A DNA stretch of 64,000 nt from Escherichia coli (lineage in GTDB: Bacteria; Pseudomonadota; Gammaproteobacteria; Enterobacterales; Enterobacteriaceae): the NCBI RefSeq assembly GCF_036507355.1, contig NZ_AP027877.1, one strand, 5' to 3'. Below the pieces are notes generated by a model that saw nothing but the letters and a program-made list of their open reading frames with translations, did not search any database and was not told the DNA's origin. Both the position numbers and the translations under genes were made by a program. The stretch's first letter is position 1, and each line of letters opens with the position of its first letter. Of the stretch, positions 11,245 through 57,148 are shown piece by piece.

Positions 11245-11277
11245 GGAGGTTCCTTATAAGCCTTCAATTACAGAGTA

Positions 11278-11304
11278 TTATCGGCAGCGACCCGCCGGAC
11301 TTGA
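11278..11304 (-). promoter_or_regulatory. Candidate sigma28 promoter for flgKL
   Basis: Minus strand reads GCCGATAA (-10 match) with a weak TCAAGTCC -35-like element 11 nt upstream, in the flgJ-flgK gap. Confidence 0.4.
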
Positions 11305-18184: not shown

Positions 18185-18601
18185 TTAATTTCCGCTCTGT
18201 AAAACGTTCATCATGCCCTTGATTTGCCCGCTCAACGCACTAAGGCTCATCTGGTATTGCAGGCTGTTATCGGCAAACTGGGTGCGTTCGCGATCCATAT
18301 CGACGGTATTACCGTCAAGCGAAGGCTGGTCCGGAATACGGTATTGCAGTTCTGCGGTAGGAGGCGTCAGCGCCTGCGCCGGAATGTGTTGCATTGAGGT
18401 CATCGTCAGAGCAACCACACTGGTTGCATCCCGTCCACGTTGCATGACTTTTTTAAGTTCACTGGCAAAATCGATATCGCGCGCCTGATAACCAGGGGTA
18501 TCGGCATTGGCGATGTTTGCTGCCAGCACTTCCTGACGCTGGGCGCGCAGATTGAGCGCCTCTTGTTGAAAACGTAAGGCGGCGTCGAGCTTATCGAGCA
18601 T
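18185..18601 (-). CDS. flgB: Flagellar basal-body rod protein
   Basis: ORF track 138 aa. Confidence 0.95.
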
Positions 18602-18755
18602 ATCTCCTCCGCAGGTATCAAAATTCTGCCATCAGCTTAAATGCCTTTACGCGCGCGTTATCGGCGGAATAAACGCAAAATGGGTCGCTATTTATGCCGT
18701 TGATGGTCATTGCGGACAGGTACAATTCACGTTGTAGAAATGGCTGGGGGCGAAA
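18602..18755. promoter_or_regulatory. Divergent flgB / flgA promoter region
   Basis: 154-bp gap between divergent operon starts; exact promoter boxes not resolved by eye. Confidence 0.6.
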
Positions 18756-19415
18756 ATGCTGGCAATAAAACGTAGCGTGGCGATCATCGCGATACTGTTC
18801 AGTCCGTTAAGTGCGGCGAGCAATCTCACATCGCAATTGCACAACTTTTTTAGCGCCCAGCTCGCAGGGATAAGTGATGAGGTTCGTGTTTCTATTCGTA
18901 CAGCGCCCAATCTACTACCGCCGTGCGAGCAGCCATTGCTTTCGATGAGCAATAATTCCCGCTTGTGGGGCAATGTGAATGTGTTGGCACGCTGCGGTAA
19001 CGACAAACGATATTTACAGGTTAATGTGCAGGCCACAGGAAATTATGTGGTTGCCGCGATGCCCATTGTGCGAGGAGGAAAGATGGGAGCTGGCAATGTC
19101 AAACTGAAACGCGGACGGCTGGATACCCTGCCGCCGCGTACGGTGCTGGATATCAATCAACTTGTTGATGCCGTTAGCCTGCGCGATCTATCACCCGATC
19201 AACCTATCCAGTTAACCCAGTTTCGCCAGGCATGGCGGGTAAAAGCGGGACAACGCGTCAACGTGATCGCCAGCGGTGATGGGTTTAGCGCCAACGCAGA
19301 AGGTCAGGCGCTGAACAATGCAGCCGTCGCACAGAATGCGCGGGTGCGCATGGTATCTGGACAGGTAGTCAGCGGCGTTGTTGATGCAGATGGGAATATT
19401 CTTATAAACCTGTAA
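18756..19415 (+). CDS. flgA: Flagellar P-ring assembly chaperone
   Basis: ORF track 219 aa with signal peptide. Confidence 0.93.
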   Translation: MLAIKRSVAIIAILFSPLSAASNLTSQLHNFFSAQLAGISDEVRVSIRTAPNLLPPCEQPLLSMSNNSRLWGNVNVLARCGNDKRYLQVNVQATGNYVVAAMPIVRGGKMGAGNVKLKRGRLDTLPPRTVLDINQLVDAVSLRDLSPDQPIQLTQFRQAWRVKAGQRVNVIASGDGFSANAEGQALNNAAVAQNARVRMVSGQVVSGVVDADGNILINL

Positions 19416-19420
19416 GCTGT

Positions 19421-19447
19421 TAAAGATTACTCGTCCCTTGCCGATAA
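19421..19447 (+). promoter_or_regulatory. sigma28 promoter for flgMN
   Basis: TAAAGATT - 11 nt - GCCGATAA, a near-perfect match to the sigma28 consensus TAAAGTTT-N11-GCCGATAA, about 45 nt upstream of flgM. Confidence 0.78.
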
Positions 19448-19490
19448 ATAAGCAACACATGATAAAAGCGCCCTCAATGAGGAATAAACC

Positions 19491-19784
19491 ATGAGTATTG
19501 ATCGCACTTCGCCTCTGAAGCCCGTAAGCACCGTTCAACCGCGCGAAACCACTGACGCGCCGGTAACGAACACCCGAGCGGCAAAAACAACAGCATCCAC
19601 CAGCACCAGTGTGACGTTAAGCGACGCGCAAGCAAAACTGATGCAACCCGGCAGCAGTGATATCAATCTTGAACGTGTCGAAGCGTTAAAACTGGCGATT
19701 CGTAACGGTGAACTAAAAATGGACACCGGCAAAATTGCCGATGCGCTGATCAACGAAGCGCAGCAAGACTTGCAGAGTAATTAA
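19491..19784 (+). CDS. flgM: Anti-sigma-28 factor
   Basis: ORF track 97 aa. Confidence 0.95.
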
Positions 19785-19788
19785 TCGT

Positions 19789-20205
19789 ATGACGCGTCTT
19801 GCAGAGATCCTCGACCAGATGTCCGCTGTGCTTAACGATCTCAAAACGGTAATGGATCAAGAGCAGCAACATCTCTCTATGGGGCAGATCAACGGCAGCC
19901 AGTTGCAATGGATTACAGAACAAAAAAGCTCACTGCTGGCAACGTTGGATTACCTCGAACAGTTACGCAGGAAAGAACCCAATACAGCAAATAGCGTTGA
20001 TGTTAGTCAACGCTGGCAGGAAATTGCTGTGAAAACGCAGCAACTACGCCAAATGAATCAACATAACGGCTGGTTACTGGAAGGACAGATTGAGCGCAAT
20101 CAACAGGCGCTGGAAATGTTGAAACCGCATCAGGAACCGACGCTATATGGGGCGAACGGTCAGACCTCAACAACCCATCGCGGCAGTAAAAAGATTTCGA
20201 TCTGA
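19789..20205 (+). CDS. flgN: Flagellar export chaperone for FlgK/FlgL
   Basis: ORF track 138 aa. Confidence 0.93.
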   Translation: MTRLAEILDQMSAVLNDLKTVMDQEQQHLSMGQINGSQLQWITEQKSSLLATLDYLEQLRRKEPNTANSVDVSQRWQEIAVKTQQLRQMNQHNGWLLEGQIERNQQALEMLKPHQEPTLYGANGQTSTTHRGSKKISI

Positions 20206-20214
20206 AGATTATCT

Positions 20215-20235
20215 CCGGCCTGCACTGCAGGCCGG
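20215..20235. terminator. Palindrome between convergent flgN and murJ, candidate bidirectional terminator
   Basis: ccggcctgcactgcaggccgg, a perfect 21-bp palindrome inside a 39-bp convergent gap. Confidence 0.55.
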
Positions 20236-20244
20236 AATGCATTG

Positions 20245-21867
<1,623 letters not shown>

Positions 21868-49984: not shown

Positions 49985-50007
49985 TAATATATTTCCATTA
50001 CTAGTAA

Positions 50008-50745
50008 TTAAAGGTCTGCAAATTCCGCAATCGGTGCCATACCGCGAGATTCAAGGAAGTTCAGTAAGCGGCGCGGAGAAACATTCAAAATGCGCTCTGG
50101 CGGAAAATCTACCGCGTCGAGGATTTTAAGACACTCTTCAAATTCCCCCATGGTAAACGCGGTGTGAGAATCCGAGCCTAATGCCACCCAACCTCCAGCA
50201 TCACGTACCGCTGCGGCTACCGCACGACAGTTGTCTTCACTGCCCTTACGTGAGTGTAAAAATGAGGAATTATTGATTTCCAGCGCCACCTGATGTTTCG
50301 CGGCTGCTTCAGCAACGGCTTTAACATCTATTTCATATTTCGGATTTCCGGGATGGCTTATTATATGCACATTGCCGCTGGCGATAGTGGCGATCATCGC
50401 TTGTGTATTGGTCGCTTTGTCATGTGGTGCAAAAACCGGCTCATGAAAACCGGCAATAATCAGATCCAGCGAGTCAAACATTTTACCGCTGCAATCAATT
50501 TCACCATCAACATTTTTAATGTTAGCTTCGATGCCGCGCAGGATCCCTACCCCATCAACCACTCGCGGCCAGATACGCATGTTAATGAAGTGCCAGTGAT
50601 GCGGCGCATCTTCCATGTCCGGGCCATGATCGGTAATCGCAAAAAGTTTAATGCCCTTTTGTTTGGCCTGGGCAATGTAATCACTCAATGTGCTATATGC
50701 ATGTGTGCTGGCAACAGTATGCATATGAAGGTCGACGGGATACAT
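50008..50745 (-). CDS. ycdX: PHP-family phosphatase YcdX
   Basis: ORF track 245 aa, [21 protein letters not shown] motif. Confidence 0.92.
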
Positions 50746-50799
50746 AACTCTCTCCTCTATTCAATTCCCGCCAAGGATAGCAGGAATCCTGATGCTTTA

Positions 50800-51777
<978 letters not shown>

Positions 51778-51971
51778 TTATCGTTATGATCTACAAAGAC
51801 CACCAGCATAACAAATCCGTGGTCGGTGGCAAAAAAAGCAGATTTCGCTTATTAAAACTGCATATTGATTGAAGTTTGAATAAACGCGCGATTTTTTAAA
51901 AAAGTTTGTTGACCTCAGGTCATGATTTCCCTAAATTAGCGCCCGTTCCAGCAAGACAGGAACGACAATTT

Positions 51972-52059
51972 GGTGAGGTGTCCGAGTGGCTGAAGGAGCA
52001 CGCCTGGAAAGTGTGTATACGGCAACGTATCGGGGGTTCGAATCCCCCCCTCACCGCCA
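51972..52059 (+). tRNA. serX: tRNA-Ser (anticodon GGA)
   Basis: 88-nt sequence ggtgaggtgtccgagtggctgaaggagcacgcctGGAaagtgtg...ggttcgaatccccccctcaccgcca with long variable arm and T-loop GTTCGAATC, followed by a hairpin plus T-run terminator. Confidence 0.92.
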
Positions 52060-52251
52060 TATTTAAAGAAGAGCTCGTACGAAAGTACGGGCTTTTTTTT
52101 CGTATATTGCACACACCGGGTGCCCCCGCCCACGTCTGTTAGGGCGAGGGGAAATCGTGCACATCAACTGTCTGGTTACTCAGTCAACAATCAAAATGCG
52201 CAAGAGAGTACAGAACATATATGTATTATCTGGTCACTTCCTATCACTTCC

Positions 52252-53238
52252 TCACTTATTAAAATGCCCCCAACGGAAATACATGTCACATGCCATCATA
52301 AAATCGTTATGCCAGAGGAATCGACAATAGAAAAAATAGTAAATTAAGCACGGTACATAGCAGAGTAAAAAATAGGCTTCAAACCAAATCCGCCATTCCA
52401 CAAGCGTTGCCAATACCGACACCAGCGTAATCCACATCACTTCAATAACCAGCAATATGAATAACCGAAGCCAAAGCGGCTTGGCAAAAAAGGTCGACAA
52501 CACATTTTCACTGGAGAAAAAGAGATCGATTTCCTGCAAAAAAAGCCTGCCCAAAAAAGCGTACCGCCTGGAGAAGCGCAGAAAAAACAGATTAATCGCC
52601 AACACTACGCCACAAAGAATGAGCAATGCAATTATCGATTTAAACGTTAACCACTGCCCCTCTATCACAAAAGAATCACTGTTACGCAACGGGCTGATAG
52701 TAAGCAGGTTAACAACCGTTGAGATGCACACCGAAAGCAGCACATAGCGAGTCAGACTTCTATATTTTACTTTTTTCGCTACTGAAATAGCGACCTGCTT
52801 GACATAACTGGTGCGGATCATCCGAAACAGCAGAAAGATAACCAACGGCCCAAGTAACGAAATCAGGAACAGCGTATATAACGAGGGTAGAAGCTGGTAT
52901 AGCCCCCAACTCATTGCACTCAACATGATTAACGACAGAAATCCTGCCACCAGAGGTTGTGTAAGAAATAATTCTATTTTGTGGTTCTGCTTTTTCTTAA
53001 ACCACGAAAAATCGATATTCTTCGTGACGCATTTATAAGCCCAGTACGCCTTGAGATCAAAAATAAAATTATACAGCACCAGGGCCAGAATCCCACTAAC
53101 GACACCAATATCCTCTGATGGAAAAGTAAATCCTGCATTTTTCCAATAAAAGCCTATCAGAATAAGTCCAATAGCATAAATGTATATCAGACTTCGTTTA
53201 TCCTGAAAGCGAATAAAAGTTAAATAATCAGGAATCAT
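52252..53238 (-). CDS. ycdU: Polytopic inner membrane protein YcdU
   Basis: ORF track 328 aa; very hydrophobic and A+T-rich; start overlaps the stop of the upstream acyltransferase gene by 4 nt. Confidence 0.85.
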
Positions 53239-54179
53239 TTGAATACCTTCGCATCACTAAATGCTTTACGACAATGCATAACTCGTTGCTGATCCACGCC
53301 AGCGAAATCATTTAACATATTCCCCAAATAGGGCTTATTACTTATTTCAAGGAAAGCTACCGAGGTTGGCATATTCAGAAATGTATCGAGAGATTCAGTC
53401 CATTTCACCGTATGAGTTAAGTGTAATGAGAGATTTTCTTTGATAATTGACGGAGCGACCTCGCTTTTTGCTGTTACGTTCATCAGAACCTGATGCTCTG
53501 GCGAAGCGATATCCAGTCCGGCAAGATAATCGCGCATTGCCTGAACGCCGTCTTCCATCAAACGCGTGTGCCAGGCACCGCTCACACCGAGTTTAACCGG
53601 TTCGTATCCAGCGGCCATCAGCAGCGTGGCAAATTCATTCAACGCAGCCTGCGTTCCCCCAATAACCTGCTGGCGCGGCGTGTTATCACAGCTAATATCC
53701 AGCGCAATGCCTGATTCCGTAATCATCGTCTGCAGTTGTTCGCGGTTGATGCCTTTAACCGCCAGCATTGCGCCTTTATTTCTCTGGCTTTCATCATGCA
53801 TCAGGCTGGCTCTGAAGTGAATCATGCCAAATAGCGTCTCAAGAGAAATAGCTCCAGCGGCGTAGAGCGCACTGTATTCACCAACGCTGTGTCCGCAGGA
53901 GCCCACAACCGTTAAATTCTCAAGACGCTCGCGGCACAGGGTATAGAGCGTTACATTAATTGCGGTCACCGCCAGTTGTTGTACCGTCGTTTGAATAAGG
54001 CGATTCATCGGCCCTTTCTGACACAGGCGACGCAGGTTCAGTCCGGAAATATCGCTGGCACAATCCCAGATATGTTTTGTACTGGCGTTGAGATCCCAAA
54101 GATCGCTGCCCATACCAATAACCGGATTACCCTGACCGGCAAAAAGCAGTACTGTCGGTTGTGAAGCATTATTCATCAT
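53235..54179 (-). CDS. FabD-like acyltransferase (malonyl-CoA:ACP transacylase family)
   Basis: ORF track 314 aa; [15 protein letters not shown]-terminal motif and [14 protein letters not shown] active-site Ser motif typical of the acyltransferase-1 fold. Confidence 0.75.
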
Positions 54180-54189
54180 CTCTTTATCC

Positions 54190-55578
54190 TTATAGATAGT
54201 ATTTAAAGCCCAAATAAAGGCCTAACGTGTCGCCAAAAAGCGCAAATTCAGAATACCGACTTCCCAGCGCGCTATAGCCACCGGCATAGGCTTCAAGCTG
54301 GTTACTGATAGCACTGAGCGGCGTGGAATAATGCAGGCCCAGCAACGTGCTGCCATCAATGAGATTGACCACCAGCGAAGGCTGCAGCGTCGACTCTCCC
54401 GACAGCGGCAGACTGACCCAGGCGTTCAGATAGTGCTTACCCTGCAGCATCCCCTGATTGGCGGTATTGCTGATTTCTGAAGCCATCAGGTATTTGTAAG
54501 AATCAAATGCCTGATCCAGTGGCGCATAGCCGGTTGTGGTATTGAGGAAGTCAATTAACTCGCGCTGCTGACGCTGTTCAGCGCGCGAATAACCCTCGCT
54601 CTGAAAGTAATACTCAACGCCAAACACGCTGAAATTATCACTGGTGTACTGCCCACCCAGCGCCAGCTCCACGCCGCTTTCATCTTTCGTTTCATAGAGC
54701 GAATCCGGAAACTGATATTCCTCGACCTGCGCCGTCTCACGGTGGGAAAGATGCCGCCATTGCTGGGAGCGGTGGTAGGCTGCGTCGACATTCAGCGTAA
54801 GCTGCGGGGTGTAGTGATAACTGTCAGACAGCGCGAGTGACGGCGATGGTCCGAGCCGCACATTGACTGTCGGCGTGTGCTCACCAAAGCGATGATCGCT
54901 GAAGCTCAGCAGATAGGCTTCGTCGCTGTTTCCCTGCTGATTAGCCGACCAGTTGCCAGACGTCACATAGCGTTTGTCGATGGTGGCTAACTTCGGTATG
55001 ACACTCGCCGAAAACGCATAATCGCGTGTATCCACGCTCATTTTTGCGCCCCACGATGACGCCTGATACGCCGATGTCATTTTGGGATCGTGCAAACGCG
55101 TCGACTGGAATCCGGTGTAATAATGCGTTTGCAAATCAGAAGGCGAACGCAAAAAGAACATTCCTGACGGCGCGGCAAATTTGCCTGCTTCAAATTGAAT
55201 GCTGTCCGAGGCACTATAGACCAGACTGAGGCGGTTAATTAACGCACGCGTGCGGCTATCATCCGTTTCGAATTTCCCTGCGGGTTTAAGCGCATATTCG
55301 TTTATTCCATACAGATTGAGCTTAAGGTCCAGCGTATTGTCGATTATCGAACAACCACTGTTGATGCCAATCCCCGCCTCCTGATAACCGTTGTGACGAG
55401 TGTAGGGATTTTTGCCTGCAATCTGCCAGGCCGAAGCCTGTTTATTGACATAAGACACCTGCTCGTAAAGCGTCACATCGCTGTTTTGTGCCACCTCGTC
55501 ACCTGACAGGCAATCCGCCTGTACCGTCAACGGCAGCGCAACACACAGCAACGAAGAGATCTTCAGCGTACGTTTCAT
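54190..55578 (-). CDS. Putative outer-membrane protein, function unknown
   Basis: ORF track 462 aa; signal peptide MKRTLKISSLLCVALPLTVQA; Tyr/Gly/Ser-rich, no long hydrophobic helices, consistent with a beta-barrel. Confidence 0.55.
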   Translation of the reverse strand: MKRTLKISSLLCVALPLTVQADCLSGDEVAQNSDVTLYEQVSYVNKQASAWQIAGKNPYTRHNGYQEAGIGINSGCSIIDNTLDLKLNLYGINEYALKPAGKFETDDSRTRALINRLSLVYSASDSIQFEAGKFAAPSGMFFLRSPSDLQTHYYTGFQSTRLHDPKMTSAYQASSWGAKMSVDTRDYAFSASVIPKLATIDKRYVTSGNWSANQQGNSDEAYLLSFSDHRFGEHTPTVNVRLGPSPSLALSDSYHYTPQLTLNVDAAYHRSQQWRHLSHRETAQVEEYQFPDSLYETKDESGVELALGGQYTSDNFSVFGVEYYFQSEGYSRAEQRQQRELIDFLNTTTGYAPLDQAFDSYKYLMASEISNTANQGMLQGKHYLNAWVSLPLSGESTLQPSLVVNLIDGSTLLGLHYSTPLSAISNQLEAYAGGYSALGSRYSEFALFGDTLGLYLGFKYYL

Positions 55579-56233
55579 TTCGCACCTCGCTGAATATACT
55601 CTTTGGTGAAATGAAACTCCTGCAGCGATTCCAGACGAACATCGCTGTACTCCATCACTGAATAGTTATTGCCGTGACGGACGTCGGTAACGGTTATTTT
55701 CATGGGTCGCGTTTTCCCCAACACCGGCTGGAAATCCTGATACAACACTTCTTTTATTAACTGGTCATCCTGCGAGTAATAGGCTGCCTTCCACGGGCGA
55801 TTATCACCGTCTTTTTCAACGTAATAGATAACCTTCGGCCAGGTGATATCCGCCGATTTACGCACCAGCGCCAGCTTGTAACACTGCTTTTCAGCACACG
55901 TGACTTCCCCCACCAGGGTCGAGTCATAGGCATATTCAAAGTTAGTGACAATGACATCGCCGTTAGAGATTTGCCCAATTAATCTTTGTTGCCGTGAAAT
56001 AGGCATAGGACGTCGCAGTTCCGGCGTGTAAAACCATAAATCGTACCAGTCGGAAAGCATGATTTTTCCTTTATCTCGCGGCGGATAAATAAAACGCACC
56101 AGCGAGCGTGCATCCGCTTTTTCATTACCCTGCGGTTTCATAAAGCGCATGGAAATATCGAGGACCTGTTTATTCTCTGGCTGGGTTGTGCCCGCTTTAT
56201 ATTCCGTTACCGTCAGCGTGTAACGAAACGGTT

Positions 56234-56242
56234 TATTCGGCG
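56234..56242. repeat. Left 9-bp target-site duplication of IS1 copy 1 (TATTCGGCG)
   Basis: Identical 9-mer directly flanks both IS1 ends. Confidence 0.9.
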
Positions 56243-56297
56243 GGTGATGCTGCCAACTTACTGATTTAGTGTATGATGGTGTTTTTGAGGTGCTCCA

Positions 56298-56573
56298 GTG
56301 GCTTCTGTTTCTATCAGCTGTCCCTCCTGTTCAGCTACTGACGGGGTGGTGCGTAACGGCAAAAGCACCGCCGGACATCAGCGCTATCTCTGCTCTCACT
56401 GTCGTAAAACATGGCAACTGCAGTTCACTTACACCGCTTCTCAACCCGGTACGCACCAGAAAATCATTGATATGGCCATGAATGGCGTTGGATGCCGGGC
56501 AACAGCCCGCATTATGGGCGTTGGCCTCAACACGATTTTACGTCACTTAAAAAACTCAGGCCGCAGTCGGTAA
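56298..56573 (+). CDS. insA: IS1 InsA
   Basis: ORF track 91 aa, zinc-finger CxxC...CxxC. Confidence 0.93.
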
Positions 56574-56995
56574 CCTCGCGCATACAGCCGGGCAGTGACG
56601 TCATCGTCTGCGCGGAAATGGACGAACAGTGGGGCTATGTCGGGGCTAAATCGCGCCAGCGCTGGCTGTTTTACGCGTATGACAGGCTCCGGAAGACGGT
56701 TGTTGCGCACGTATTCGGTGAACGCACGATGGCGACGCTGGGGCGTCTTATGAGCCTGCTGTCACCCTTTGACGTGGTGATATGGATGACGGATGGCTGG
56801 CCGCTGTATGAATCCCGCCTGAAGGGAAAGCTGCACGTAATCAGCAAGCGATATACGCAGCGAATTGAGCGGCATAACCTGAATCTGAGGCAGCACCTGG
56901 CACGGCTGGGACGGAAGTCGCTGTCGTTCTCAAAATCGGTGGAGCTGCATGACAAAGTCATCGGGCATTATCTGAACATAAAACACTATCAATAA
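56492..56995 (+). CDS. insB: IS1 InsB (transposase made as an InsAB' frameshift fusion)
   Basis: ORF track 167 aa, overlaps insA in the -1 frame. Confidence 0.93.
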
Positions 56996-57010
56996 GTTGG
57001 AGTCATTACC

Positions 57011-57019
57011 TATTCGGCG
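57011..57019. repeat. Right 9-bp target-site duplication of IS1 copy 1 (TATTCGGCG)
   Basis: Identical to 56234..56242. Confidence 0.9.
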
Positions 57020-57148
57020 AACGAATTTCGTCAGCGCGACGAATTATCTCCAGCGCCTTATCATCTGTGCTCGCCGCCTGAACGCACGACGTAGCGAGCC
57101 ACAGGCAAGCAAACCACTTGCCGTAAAAAGCCATATTCATAATTAGCC

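What the first reader, a model, noticed from the sequence alone, without database searches (positions are those of the whole stretch)
19421..19447. Near-consensus sigma28 promoter immediately upstream of flgM
TAAAGATT-N11-GCCGATAA matches the sigma28 consensus in 7 of 8 and 8 of 8 positions with the canonical spacer. It lies in the short gap after flgA, which supports sigma28-driven flgMN transcription in addition to read-through from flgA.
Basis: partly seen in the sequence, partly recalled or inferred. Interest (0 to 1): 0.3.

Follow-up and report, generated by a model that had tools for sequence, protein, structure and literature searches.

The report
Known sigma-28 promoter of flgM
This is the well-known flagellar sigma-28 (FliA) "class 3" promoter in front of the anti-sigma factor gene flgM; it is real and strongly conserved, and it has already been described in E. 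coli and Salmonella, so it is an ordinary finding.

Summary
TAAAGATT (19421-19428), an 11-nt spacer and GCCGATAA (19440-19447) lie on the + strand, 5 nt after the flgA stop codon and 43 nt before the flgM ATG. The match is far beyond chance. It is the only site in the window with at most 1 mismatch (0 of 100 shuffles). In a matrix built from published FliA ChIP-seq sites, leaving out this one, it scores 26.1 bits; the best score in 200 random 64-kb sequences was 20.6. The 105 nt around it are identical to E. coli K-12 except for one spacer base. The K-12 site is a strong in vivo FliA ChIP-seq peak assigned to flgMN, and it is also an in vitro sigma-28 holoenzyme SELEX peak. FliA overexpression without FlhDC restores flgM expression. 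In 78 of 78 flgM loci from about 20 enterobacterial genera, TAAAG and TGCCGAT are invariant at identical spacing, while the spacer and flanks drift. No terminator separates flgA from flgM, so the dual input (flgAMN read-through plus flgMN) also holds. One point is weak: I found no primary 5'-end map for the sigma-28 start. One published construct implies +1 near 19455, and one TSS dataset reports a different, weak 5' end at 19425. Verdict: already known, low interest.

The parts
19421..19428 (+). -35 element of the sigma-28 promoter (TAAAGATT)
   Evidence: Read. TAAAG is invariant (2.0 bits per position) in 72 unique sequences from 79 loci. It is part of the K-12 FliA ChIP-seq motif for flgMN.
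19429..19439 (+). 11-nt spacer (ACTCGTCCCTT). Its last T (19439) is invariant across genera. T at 19431 is a private variant (C in K-12 and O55:H7).
   Evidence: Mean spacer information is 0.94 bits against 1.8 bits for the two elements, and the spacer length is the same in 78/78 loci.
19440..19447 (+). -10 element of the sigma-28 promoter (GCCGATAA)
   Evidence: Read. GCCGAT is invariant and position 7 is nearly so. It is 8/8 to the consensus.
19454..19456 (+). Inferred transcription start region. +1 is about 19455 (A), 8 nt after the -10.
   Evidence: Inferred from the '+1 to 105 = 23 codons + leader' construct in PMC7549644. A conserved AAC sits 7-9 nt after the -10 across genera, at 1.36/1.71/1.39 bits against about 0.7 bits for the flank. 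It was not directly mapped here.
19455..19490 (+). Inferred 36-nt class 3 leader of flgM, containing the Shine-Dalgarno GAGGA (about 19479-19483)
   Evidence: It has no structure beyond chance (z = 0.18).
19491..19784 (+). flgM (anti-sigma-28 factor), first gene of the flgMN unit
   Evidence: ORF. Annotated as flgM in matching E. coli genomes.
19789..20205 (+). flgN (export chaperone for FlgK/FlgL), second gene of the unit
18756..19415 (+). flgA, the upstream class 2 gene whose transcript reads through into flgMN
   Evidence: No + strand terminator-like site lies in 18500-20400. The flgAMN operon is described in PMC4183435.

Best explanation
This is the class 3 (FliA/sigma-28-dependent) promoter of the flgMN transcription unit, nested at the end of the class 2 flgAMN operon. 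RNA polymerase carrying sigma-28 recognises TAAAGATT and GCCGATAA, spaced 11 nt apart. It most likely starts transcription at about 19455 and makes a short-leader flgMN mRNA. Because flgM encodes the anti-sigma factor of sigma-28, the promoter closes a negative feedback loop: free sigma-28 makes more FlgM. That FlgM is exported once the hook-basal body is complete. FlhDC-driven sigma-70 transcription from the flgA promoter reads through into flgMN and supplies FlgM earlier in assembly. Shown here: the motif, its statistical significance, its identity to the K-12 site, its phylogenetic footprint, and the absence of an intervening terminator. Taken from papers: sigma-28 binding in vivo and in vitro, FliA-dependent expression, and the feedback role. 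Inferred: the exact +1, and activity in this particular strain.
For: Significance comes (0/100 shuffles; 26.1 bits against a random maximum of 20.6). The window is identical to K-12 and O55:H7 over 105 nt except for one spacer base. K-12 FliA ChIP-seq gives a peak of FAT 48 with motif TAAAGATTACCCGTCCCTTGCCGATAAA assigned to flgMN (PMC4183435). RpoF-holoenzyme genomic SELEX gives a peak at 1129438 in the flgM/flgA spacer, intensity 15.0 (PMC5493296). Cho et al. 2014 list sigma ChIP signal 'DF' for the flgM;flgN unit. fliA overexpression in delta-flhD restores flgM expression, and the overlapping flgAMN/flgMN operons are supported by ChIP-seq and RNA-seq. In Salmonella, flgM is described as under both a class 2 and a class 3 promoter, forming a negative feedback loop (bioRxiv 10.1101/2019.12.18.881938). 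For the footprint, 78/78 flgM loci from about 20 genera carry TAAAG-N14-GCCGAT at identical spacing, with information of 1.81 and 1.82 bits per position in the elements, 0.94 in the spacer and 0.69-0.78 in the flanks. All flg genes in the window are intact and collinear with E. coli.
Against: I could not read any primary 5'-end mapping of the sigma-28 start. The two genome-wide TSS tables I could read come from the same laboratory and the same data lineage. Both give a weak 5' end (14 and 21 reads) at K-12 1129417, which is window 19425, inside the -35 element and 66 nt before the ATG. Neither lists anything at about 19455. In motile K-12, deleting fliA lowered flgM only from 451 to 318, not significant, so the promoter's contribution can be minor under some conditions. 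fliA, flhDC and the export apparatus lie outside the window, and the window carries IS1 copies. Activity in this strain is therefore not established.
Confidence: 0.96

Rival explanations
1. The site binds sigma-28 holoenzyme but is nearly silent in practice. In this view essentially all flgMN mRNA comes from FlhDC/sigma-70 read-through of flgAMN, and the class 3 promoter matters only under special conditions such as flagellar repair, swarming or high free FliA.
For: In motile K-12, delta-fliA changed flgM only from 451 to 318, not significant, while delta-flhD abolished flgAMN expression (319 to 3). The authors conclude that most transcription of the dual-regulated genes came from the FlhDC-dependent promoters under their conditions. 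The only TSS tables I could read lack a start at about 19455.
Against: fliA overexpression in delta-flhD brings flgM to wild-type level or higher, so the promoter is competent. Invariance of both elements and of the spacing across about 20 genera points to purifying selection on function. From my own recollection, not checked here, Salmonella work by Gillen and Hughes (1993) attributed most flgM transcription to the class 3 promoter.
Confidence: 0.2
2. The relevant start in this gap is not the sigma-28 one. Instead it is a 5' end at 19425, made either by a weak sigma-70 promoter at the end of flgA or by RNase processing of the flgAMN read-through transcript.
For: Kim et al. 2012 (14 reads) and Cho et al. 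2014 (21 reads, assigned 'D') list a 5' end at K-12 1129417, which is window 19425. A weak -10-like TAAGCT lies at 19413-19418, read by eye. RNase E cleavage sites have been reported in the flgM and flgA 5' regions in Salmonella, as cited in PMC12399333.
Against: The sigma-70 scan found no + strand promoter-like site here. Read counts are low and both tables derive from one data lineage. Whether those cultures expressed the flagellar regulon was not checked here. A 5' end at 19425 does not exclude the sigma-28 start, and it cannot explain the ChIP-seq, SELEX and conservation data. It may coexist as a minor feature.
Confidence: 0.05
3. The motif is a chance match or a relic with no promoter function in this strain.
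For: The window carries IS1 insertions and matches no complete E. coli genome exactly. A Shigella-like non-motile host with a dead flhDC or fliA cannot be excluded from the window alone.
Against: Chance is excluded. The promoter and all 14 flg genes are intact. The only change is a spacer base at a position that varies freely between genera (0.69 bits).
Confidence: 0.03

Closest known systems
E. coli K-12 flgMN class 3 promoter (FliA ChIP-seq site, motif centre 1129409 in NC_000913.2; Fitzgerald et al. 2014, PMC4183435)
   Same: It has the same locus, the same orientation and the same distance to flgA and flgM. The -35, -10, discriminator and leader are identical: 104 of 105 nt match.
   Different: One spacer base differs: T at window 19431 against C in K-12. 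None of 5,425 complete E. coli genomes carries this T. The position is variable across genera, so the change is probably neutral.
Salmonella enterica flgM class 3 promoter within flgAMN/flgMN (dual class 2 and class 3 control)
   Same: The architecture is the same: a sigma-28 promoter just after flgA and in front of flgM. TAAAGATT-N11-GCCGAT was found in the S. enterica subsp. arizonae and diarizonae loci (L009, L024). The feedback logic is described.
   Different: The Salmonella -10 is GCCGATGA rather than GCCGATAA, and the -10 lies 59 nt from the ATG instead of 43. Escherichia has a leader about 17 nt shorter than most other genera.
flgKL class 3 promoter in the same window (11277-11304, - strand)
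   Same: It is also a sigma-28 promoter nested behind a class 2 operon (flgB-J) that gives dual input. It is identical to the K-12 ChIP-seq motif TCAAGTCCGGCGGGTCGCTGCCGATAAT.
   Different: Its -35 is much weaker (TCAAGTCC). It scores 16.4 bits against 26.1 for the flgM site.
Secondary sigma-28 promoters flgAP2 / flgBP2 in the flgA-flgB intergenic region (NAR 2026, PMC12781870)
   Same: They are sigma-28-dependent promoters in the same gene cluster. flgAP2 would also feed transcription into flgAMN.
   Different: Their -35 elements are poor, they are repressed by FlhD4C2, and flgBP2 is activated by MarA. They do not appear among the top matrix hits in the window. The flgM promoter is near-consensus, and RpoF holoenzyme alone binds it in vitro.

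Membership tests
Sigma-28 (FliA) dependent class 3 flagellar promoter | -10 element matching GCCGATAA | tested here: met
   8/8 at 19440-19447. GCCGAT is invariant in 78/78 related loci.
Sigma-28 (FliA) dependent class 3 flagellar promoter | -35 element matching TAAAGTTT / TAAAGATT | tested here: met
   7/8 to the textbook consensus and 8/8 to the consensus of the ChIP-seq-derived matrix. TAAAG is invariant across genera.
Sigma-28 (FliA) dependent class 3 flagellar promoter | 11-nt spacing between the two octamers | tested here: met
   The spacer is 19429-19439, 11 nt. The spacing is the same in 78/78 loci.
Sigma-28 (FliA) dependent class 3 flagellar promoter | Score above chance in a matrix built from experimentally bound sites | tested here: met
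   26.07 bits with this site left out of the training set. The maximum over 200 random 64-kb sequences was 20.56.
Sigma-28 (FliA) dependent class 3 flagellar promoter | Upstream of and co-oriented with a flagellar or chemotaxis gene | tested here: met
   It lies 43 nt upstream of the flgM ATG on the same strand.
Sigma-28 (FliA) dependent class 3 flagellar promoter | Occupied by sigma-28 holoenzyme | not testable with these tools
   Published for the K-12 orthologue, which is identical in both elements: ChIP-seq FAT 48, genomic SELEX intensity 15.0, and ChIP-chip signal 'DF'.
Sigma-28 (FliA) dependent class 3 flagellar promoter | FliA-dependent transcript whose 5' end lies about 6-10 nt after the -10 | tested here: inconclusive
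   A published construct implies +1 at window 19455, and a conserved AAC sits there. The only TSS tables I could read give 19425 instead. The primary mapping papers (Wozniak 2010, Thomason 2015) are not held.
Sigma-28 (FliA) dependent class 3 flagellar promoter | Expression of the downstream gene responds to FliA | not testable with these tools
   Published: fliA overexpression in delta-flhD restores flgM. Deleting fliA alone has a small, non-significant effect.
Overlapping class 2 / class 3 operon (flgAMN / flgMN) | No terminator between the class 2 gene and the internal class 3 promoter | tested here: met
   No + strand terminator-like site lies in 18500-20400. The flgA stop codon is 5 nt before the -35, and the gap is 5-6 nt in 56 of 79 loci.

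The most novel reading that the evidence does not exclude
The most novel reading the evidence leaves open concerns the flgA-flgM gap. Besides the known sigma-28 start, it may hold a second, FliA-independent 5' end at 19425, inside the -35 element, from a weak sigma-70 promoter or an RNase cleavage site. Use of that end would compete with or report on sigma-28 occupancy. Separately, the private C-to-T spacer change at 19431 might tune promoter strength in this lineage.
Probability: 0.1. Interest if true: 0.25.

Novelty: already known. Interest (0 to 1): 0.08.

Why it matters
The promoter is one arm of the FliA-FlgM checkpoint that couples late flagellar gene expression to completion of the hook-basal body, which is a textbook regulatory circuit. 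Confirming it here adds nothing new biologically. It also provides a clean positive control: a site that passes statistical, comparative and literature tests. The cross-genus footprint (invariant TAAAG, TGCCGAT and spacing) is a neat but expected illustration of how stringent sigma-28 promoter recognition is.

Tried and rejected
(1) I looked for a directly mapped sigma-28 5' end. Wozniak et al. 2010 (PMC2937404) and Thomason et al. 2015 are not held. The held part of the Cappable-seq supplement had no entry at the expected coordinates 1130162-1130166 or at 1130194, and I did not check whether that table is complete as stored. Kim 2012 and Cho 2014 list only 1129417. (2) I tested for a sigma-70 promoter in the gap. 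The scan found no + strand site; the one nearby hit is on the - strand (19423..19395), and the total number of hits (2) matches the shuffle expectation of 2.4. I rejected it as chance. (3) I tested for a regulatory RNA structure in the class 3 leader. The MFE is -7.7 kcal/mol with z = 0.18, no better than shuffles, so I rejected it. (4) I checked other matrix hits in the window as possible extra sigma-28 promoters. Apart from flgKL, the best (58145-58172, - strand, 14.2-17.4 bits) lies within the range of random maxima, so I did not pursue it. (5) I tried to identify the source strain. No complete E. coli genome matches exactly.

Full report
OBSERVATION. The + strand reads TAAAGATT (19421-19428), ACTCGTCCCTT (19429-19439, 11 nt) and GCCGATAA (19440-19447). 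The ORF list puts the flgA stop codon at 19413-19415 and the flgM ATG at 19491, followed by flgN at 19789-20205 and a convergent murJ. The gene names come from matching E. coli genomes, which are 99.4% identical over 18700-20300.

IS IT MORE THAN CHANCE? Allowing at most one mismatch to TAAAGTTT-N11-GCCGATAA, this is the only hit on either strand of the window, and none of 100 dinucleotide-preserving shuffles produced a hit. With three mismatches allowed, the only other hit is 11278-11304 on the - strand. That second hit is the known flgKL promoter.

I left out the flgMN and flgKL sites to avoid circularity. With the 23 remaining strong sites (FAT>4), the window site scores 26.07 bits. The next best hit is flgKL at 16.4 bits. 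The maximum score in 200 Markov-1 random 64-kb sequences averaged 14.6 (sd 1.9) and never exceeded 20.6. Scored against the published K-12 sites with the same matrix, only the tar promoter scores higher than the K-12 flgMN sequence. The consensus of that matrix is TAAAGATT, so the single 'mismatch' to the textbook consensus is not a mismatch to the set of experimentally bound sites.

IDENTITY WITH AN EXPERIMENTALLY CHARACTERISED SITE. Over window 19396-19500, the sequence is identical to E. coli K-12 MG1655 and to O55:H7 RM12579 except for one spacer base, T at 19431 where both have C. The K-12 sequence TAAAGATTACCCGTCCCTTGCCGATAAA is listed as a FliA ChIP-seq peak with fold-above-threshold 48, assigned to flgMN. 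An independent in vitro method, genomic SELEX with reconstituted RpoF holoenzyme, gives a peak at K-12 1129438 in the flgM/flgA spacer with intensity 15.0 (PMC5493296). Cho et al. 2014 list sigma-factor ChIP signal 'DF' (sigma-70 and sigma-28) for the flgM;flgN unit.

[quoted passage not shown] They also report that overexpressing fliA in a delta-flhD strain returns flgM expression to wild-type level or higher. A Salmonella study describes flgM as controlled by both a class 2 and a class 3 promoter, forming a negative feedback loop on sigma-28.

COMPARATIVE TEST. A scan of one genome per species with the FlgM protein returned 80 loci. They come from Escherichia, Salmonella, Citrobacter, Enterobacter, Buttiauxella, Lelliottia, Cedecea, Kosakonia, Phytobacter, Leclercia, Atlantibacter, Yokenella, Trabulsiella, Superficieibacter and others. 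In each of the 78 loci with enough upstream DNA, the best matrix hit in the 200 nt before flgM, scored with the spacer columns neutralised, is a TAAAG...GCCGAT site with exactly the same spacing, scoring 19.5-24.7 bits.

I anchored the sequences on the motif and collapsed them to 72 unique sequences. Mean information per position is 1.81 bits in the -35 octamer and 1.82 bits in the -10 octamer. It is 0.94 bits in the spacer and 0.69-0.78 bits in the flanks. TAAAG, the T that precedes the -10, and GCCGAT are invariant. This is the pattern expected of a promoter under purifying selection, and it does not depend on any literature.

The distance from the -10 to the ATG is 43 nt in Escherichia and mostly 59-63 nt elsewhere, so the leader length is not constrained. 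The flgA stop codon lies 5-6 nt before the -35 in 56 of 79 loci and 15-31 nt before it in the rest.

WHERE DOES TRANSCRIPTION START? This is the weakest link. Romilly et al. [quoted passage not shown] Subtracting 69 coding nucleotides from 105 leaves a 36-nt leader. A conserved AAC lies exactly there across genera, at 1.36/1.71/1.39 bits against about 0.7 bits around it.

Against this, the two genome-wide TSS tables I could read are from the same laboratory and the same data lineage (Kim 2012; Cho 2014). They list one weak 5' end for flgM at K-12 1129417, 66 nt before the ATG. In the window that is 19425, the G of TAAAG. This cannot be the sigma-28 start. No + strand sigma-70-like site was found by the scan. 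By eye, TAAGCT at 19413-19418 is a weak -10 candidate. RNase E cleavage in the flgM and flgA 5' regions has been reported in Salmonella, as cited in PMC12399333. The 19425 end may therefore be a processing product of read-through flgAMN mRNA or a minor sigma-70 start. I did not check whether those cultures expressed the flagellar regulon, so the lack of a sigma-28 start in these tables is not strong negative evidence. The primary mapping papers are not held, and the held part of the Cappable-seq table had no entry at the expected coordinates.

MECHANISM. The evidence supports the standard picture. FlhDC-activated sigma-70 transcription from the flgA promoter reads through the 75-nt gap into flgMN, and no + strand terminator-like site lies in between. 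Sigma-28 holoenzyme initiates independently at the nested promoter. Because the product FlgM sequesters sigma-28 until it is exported through the completed hook-basal body, the nested promoter gives negative autoregulation of sigma-28 activity.

The share of transcription from each input depends on conditions. In motile K-12, delta-fliA lowered flgM only from 451 to 318, which was not significant. There is a further nuance. A 2026 paper reports secondary sigma-28 promoters (flgAP2, flgBP2) in the flgA-flgB intergenic region (PMC12781870). Some 'read-through from flgA' may therefore itself be sigma-28-driven. The class 3 leader (19455-19520) shows no RNA structure beyond chance (z = 0.18). OmrA and OmrB pair with the first nine codons of flgM.

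STRAIN CONTEXT. All flg genes from flgL to flgN are full length and collinear with E. coli. The window is about 99% identical to E. coli genomes but identical to none. None of 5,425 complete E. coli genomes has the T at 19431. Two identical inverted IS1-sized copies sit at 56242-57010 and 59427-60195. fliA and flhDC lie outside the window, so I cannot say whether the promoter is active in this strain.

VERDICT. The feature is the already known flgMN class 3 promoter, so interest is low. The only loose ends are the unexplained weak 5' end at 19425 and the private spacer variant.

Noticed in passing
window 11277-11304 (- strand): The sigma-28 promoter of flgKL, TCAAGTCCGGCGGGTCGCTGCCGATAAT, is identical to the K-12 FliA ChIP-seq motif (FAT 47). 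It is the second-best matrix hit in the window (16.4-18.5 bits) and lies between flgJ and flgK.
   Followed up: partly
window 18658-18665 (- strand), flgA-flgB intergenic region 18602-18755: A perfect GCCGATAA points toward flgB, about 57 nt upstream of the flgB ATG, with a very poor -35 (CCCATTTT by eye). This fits the secondary, MarA-activated sigma-28 promoter flgBP2 described in NAR 2026 (PMC12781870). A possible flgAP2 -10 (GCCGTTGA, 18696-18703) faces the other way. The paper's figure with the sequence could not be read, so this assignment is my inference.
   Followed up: partly
window 19425 (+ strand): Two TSS tables from one laboratory (Kim 2012, 14 reads; Cho 2014, 21 reads) place a flgM 5' end here, inside the sigma-28 -35 element and 66 nt before the ATG. 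It is not explained by the sigma-28 promoter. It may be a processing site of flgAMN mRNA or a weak sigma-70 start.
   Followed up: partly
window 19431: T in the promoter spacer where K-12 and O55:H7 have C. None of 5,425 complete E. coli genomes matches the 90-nt stretch 19401-19490 exactly; the best is 98.9%. The position varies freely between genera, so the change is probably neutral.
   Followed up: yes
window 56242-57010 and 59427-60195: Two 769-nt copies, 100% complementary to each other in inverted orientation, each carry an IS1 InsB-sized ORF (56492-56995 on +, 59442-59945 on -). They interrupt a cluster next to ycdU (lipoprotein-sorting protein, ABC transporter, beta-ketoacyl synthase genes) that is intact in E. 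coli W619. Only 1 of 5,425 genomes covers at least 80% of 50001-64000. The inverted pair could invert or delete the 2.4 kb between the copies.
   Followed up: partly
whole window: The octamer GCCGATAA occurs 8 times against 2.8 expected (0 of 100 shuffles reach 8). Two or three copies are sigma-28 -10 elements (11278, 18658, 19440). The others (18267, 31347, 42119, 49775, 60639) were not examined, apart from noting that 18267 falls inside flgB. They may simply reflect codon usage, which dinucleotide shuffles do not preserve.
   Followed up: no
L003-L082 versus window 19448-19490: The distance from the flgM -10 to the ATG is 43 nt in Escherichia (E. coli, E. albertii, E. whittamii) and 43-45 nt in four Buttiauxella loci. 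It is 57-66 nt in the other loci. The class 3 leader therefore differs by about 17 nt between lineages, while the promoter itself is invariant.
   Followed up: partly
window 58145-58172 (- strand): A sigma-28-like site, TAAAAATAAGAGCCTGATTGCCGATTAT (14.2-17.4 bits), lies in sense orientation inside the ABC-transporter permease ORF 57149-58459. Its score is within the range of random maxima, so it is probably chance or one of the weak intragenic FliA sites of the kind described in E. coli.
   Followed up: no
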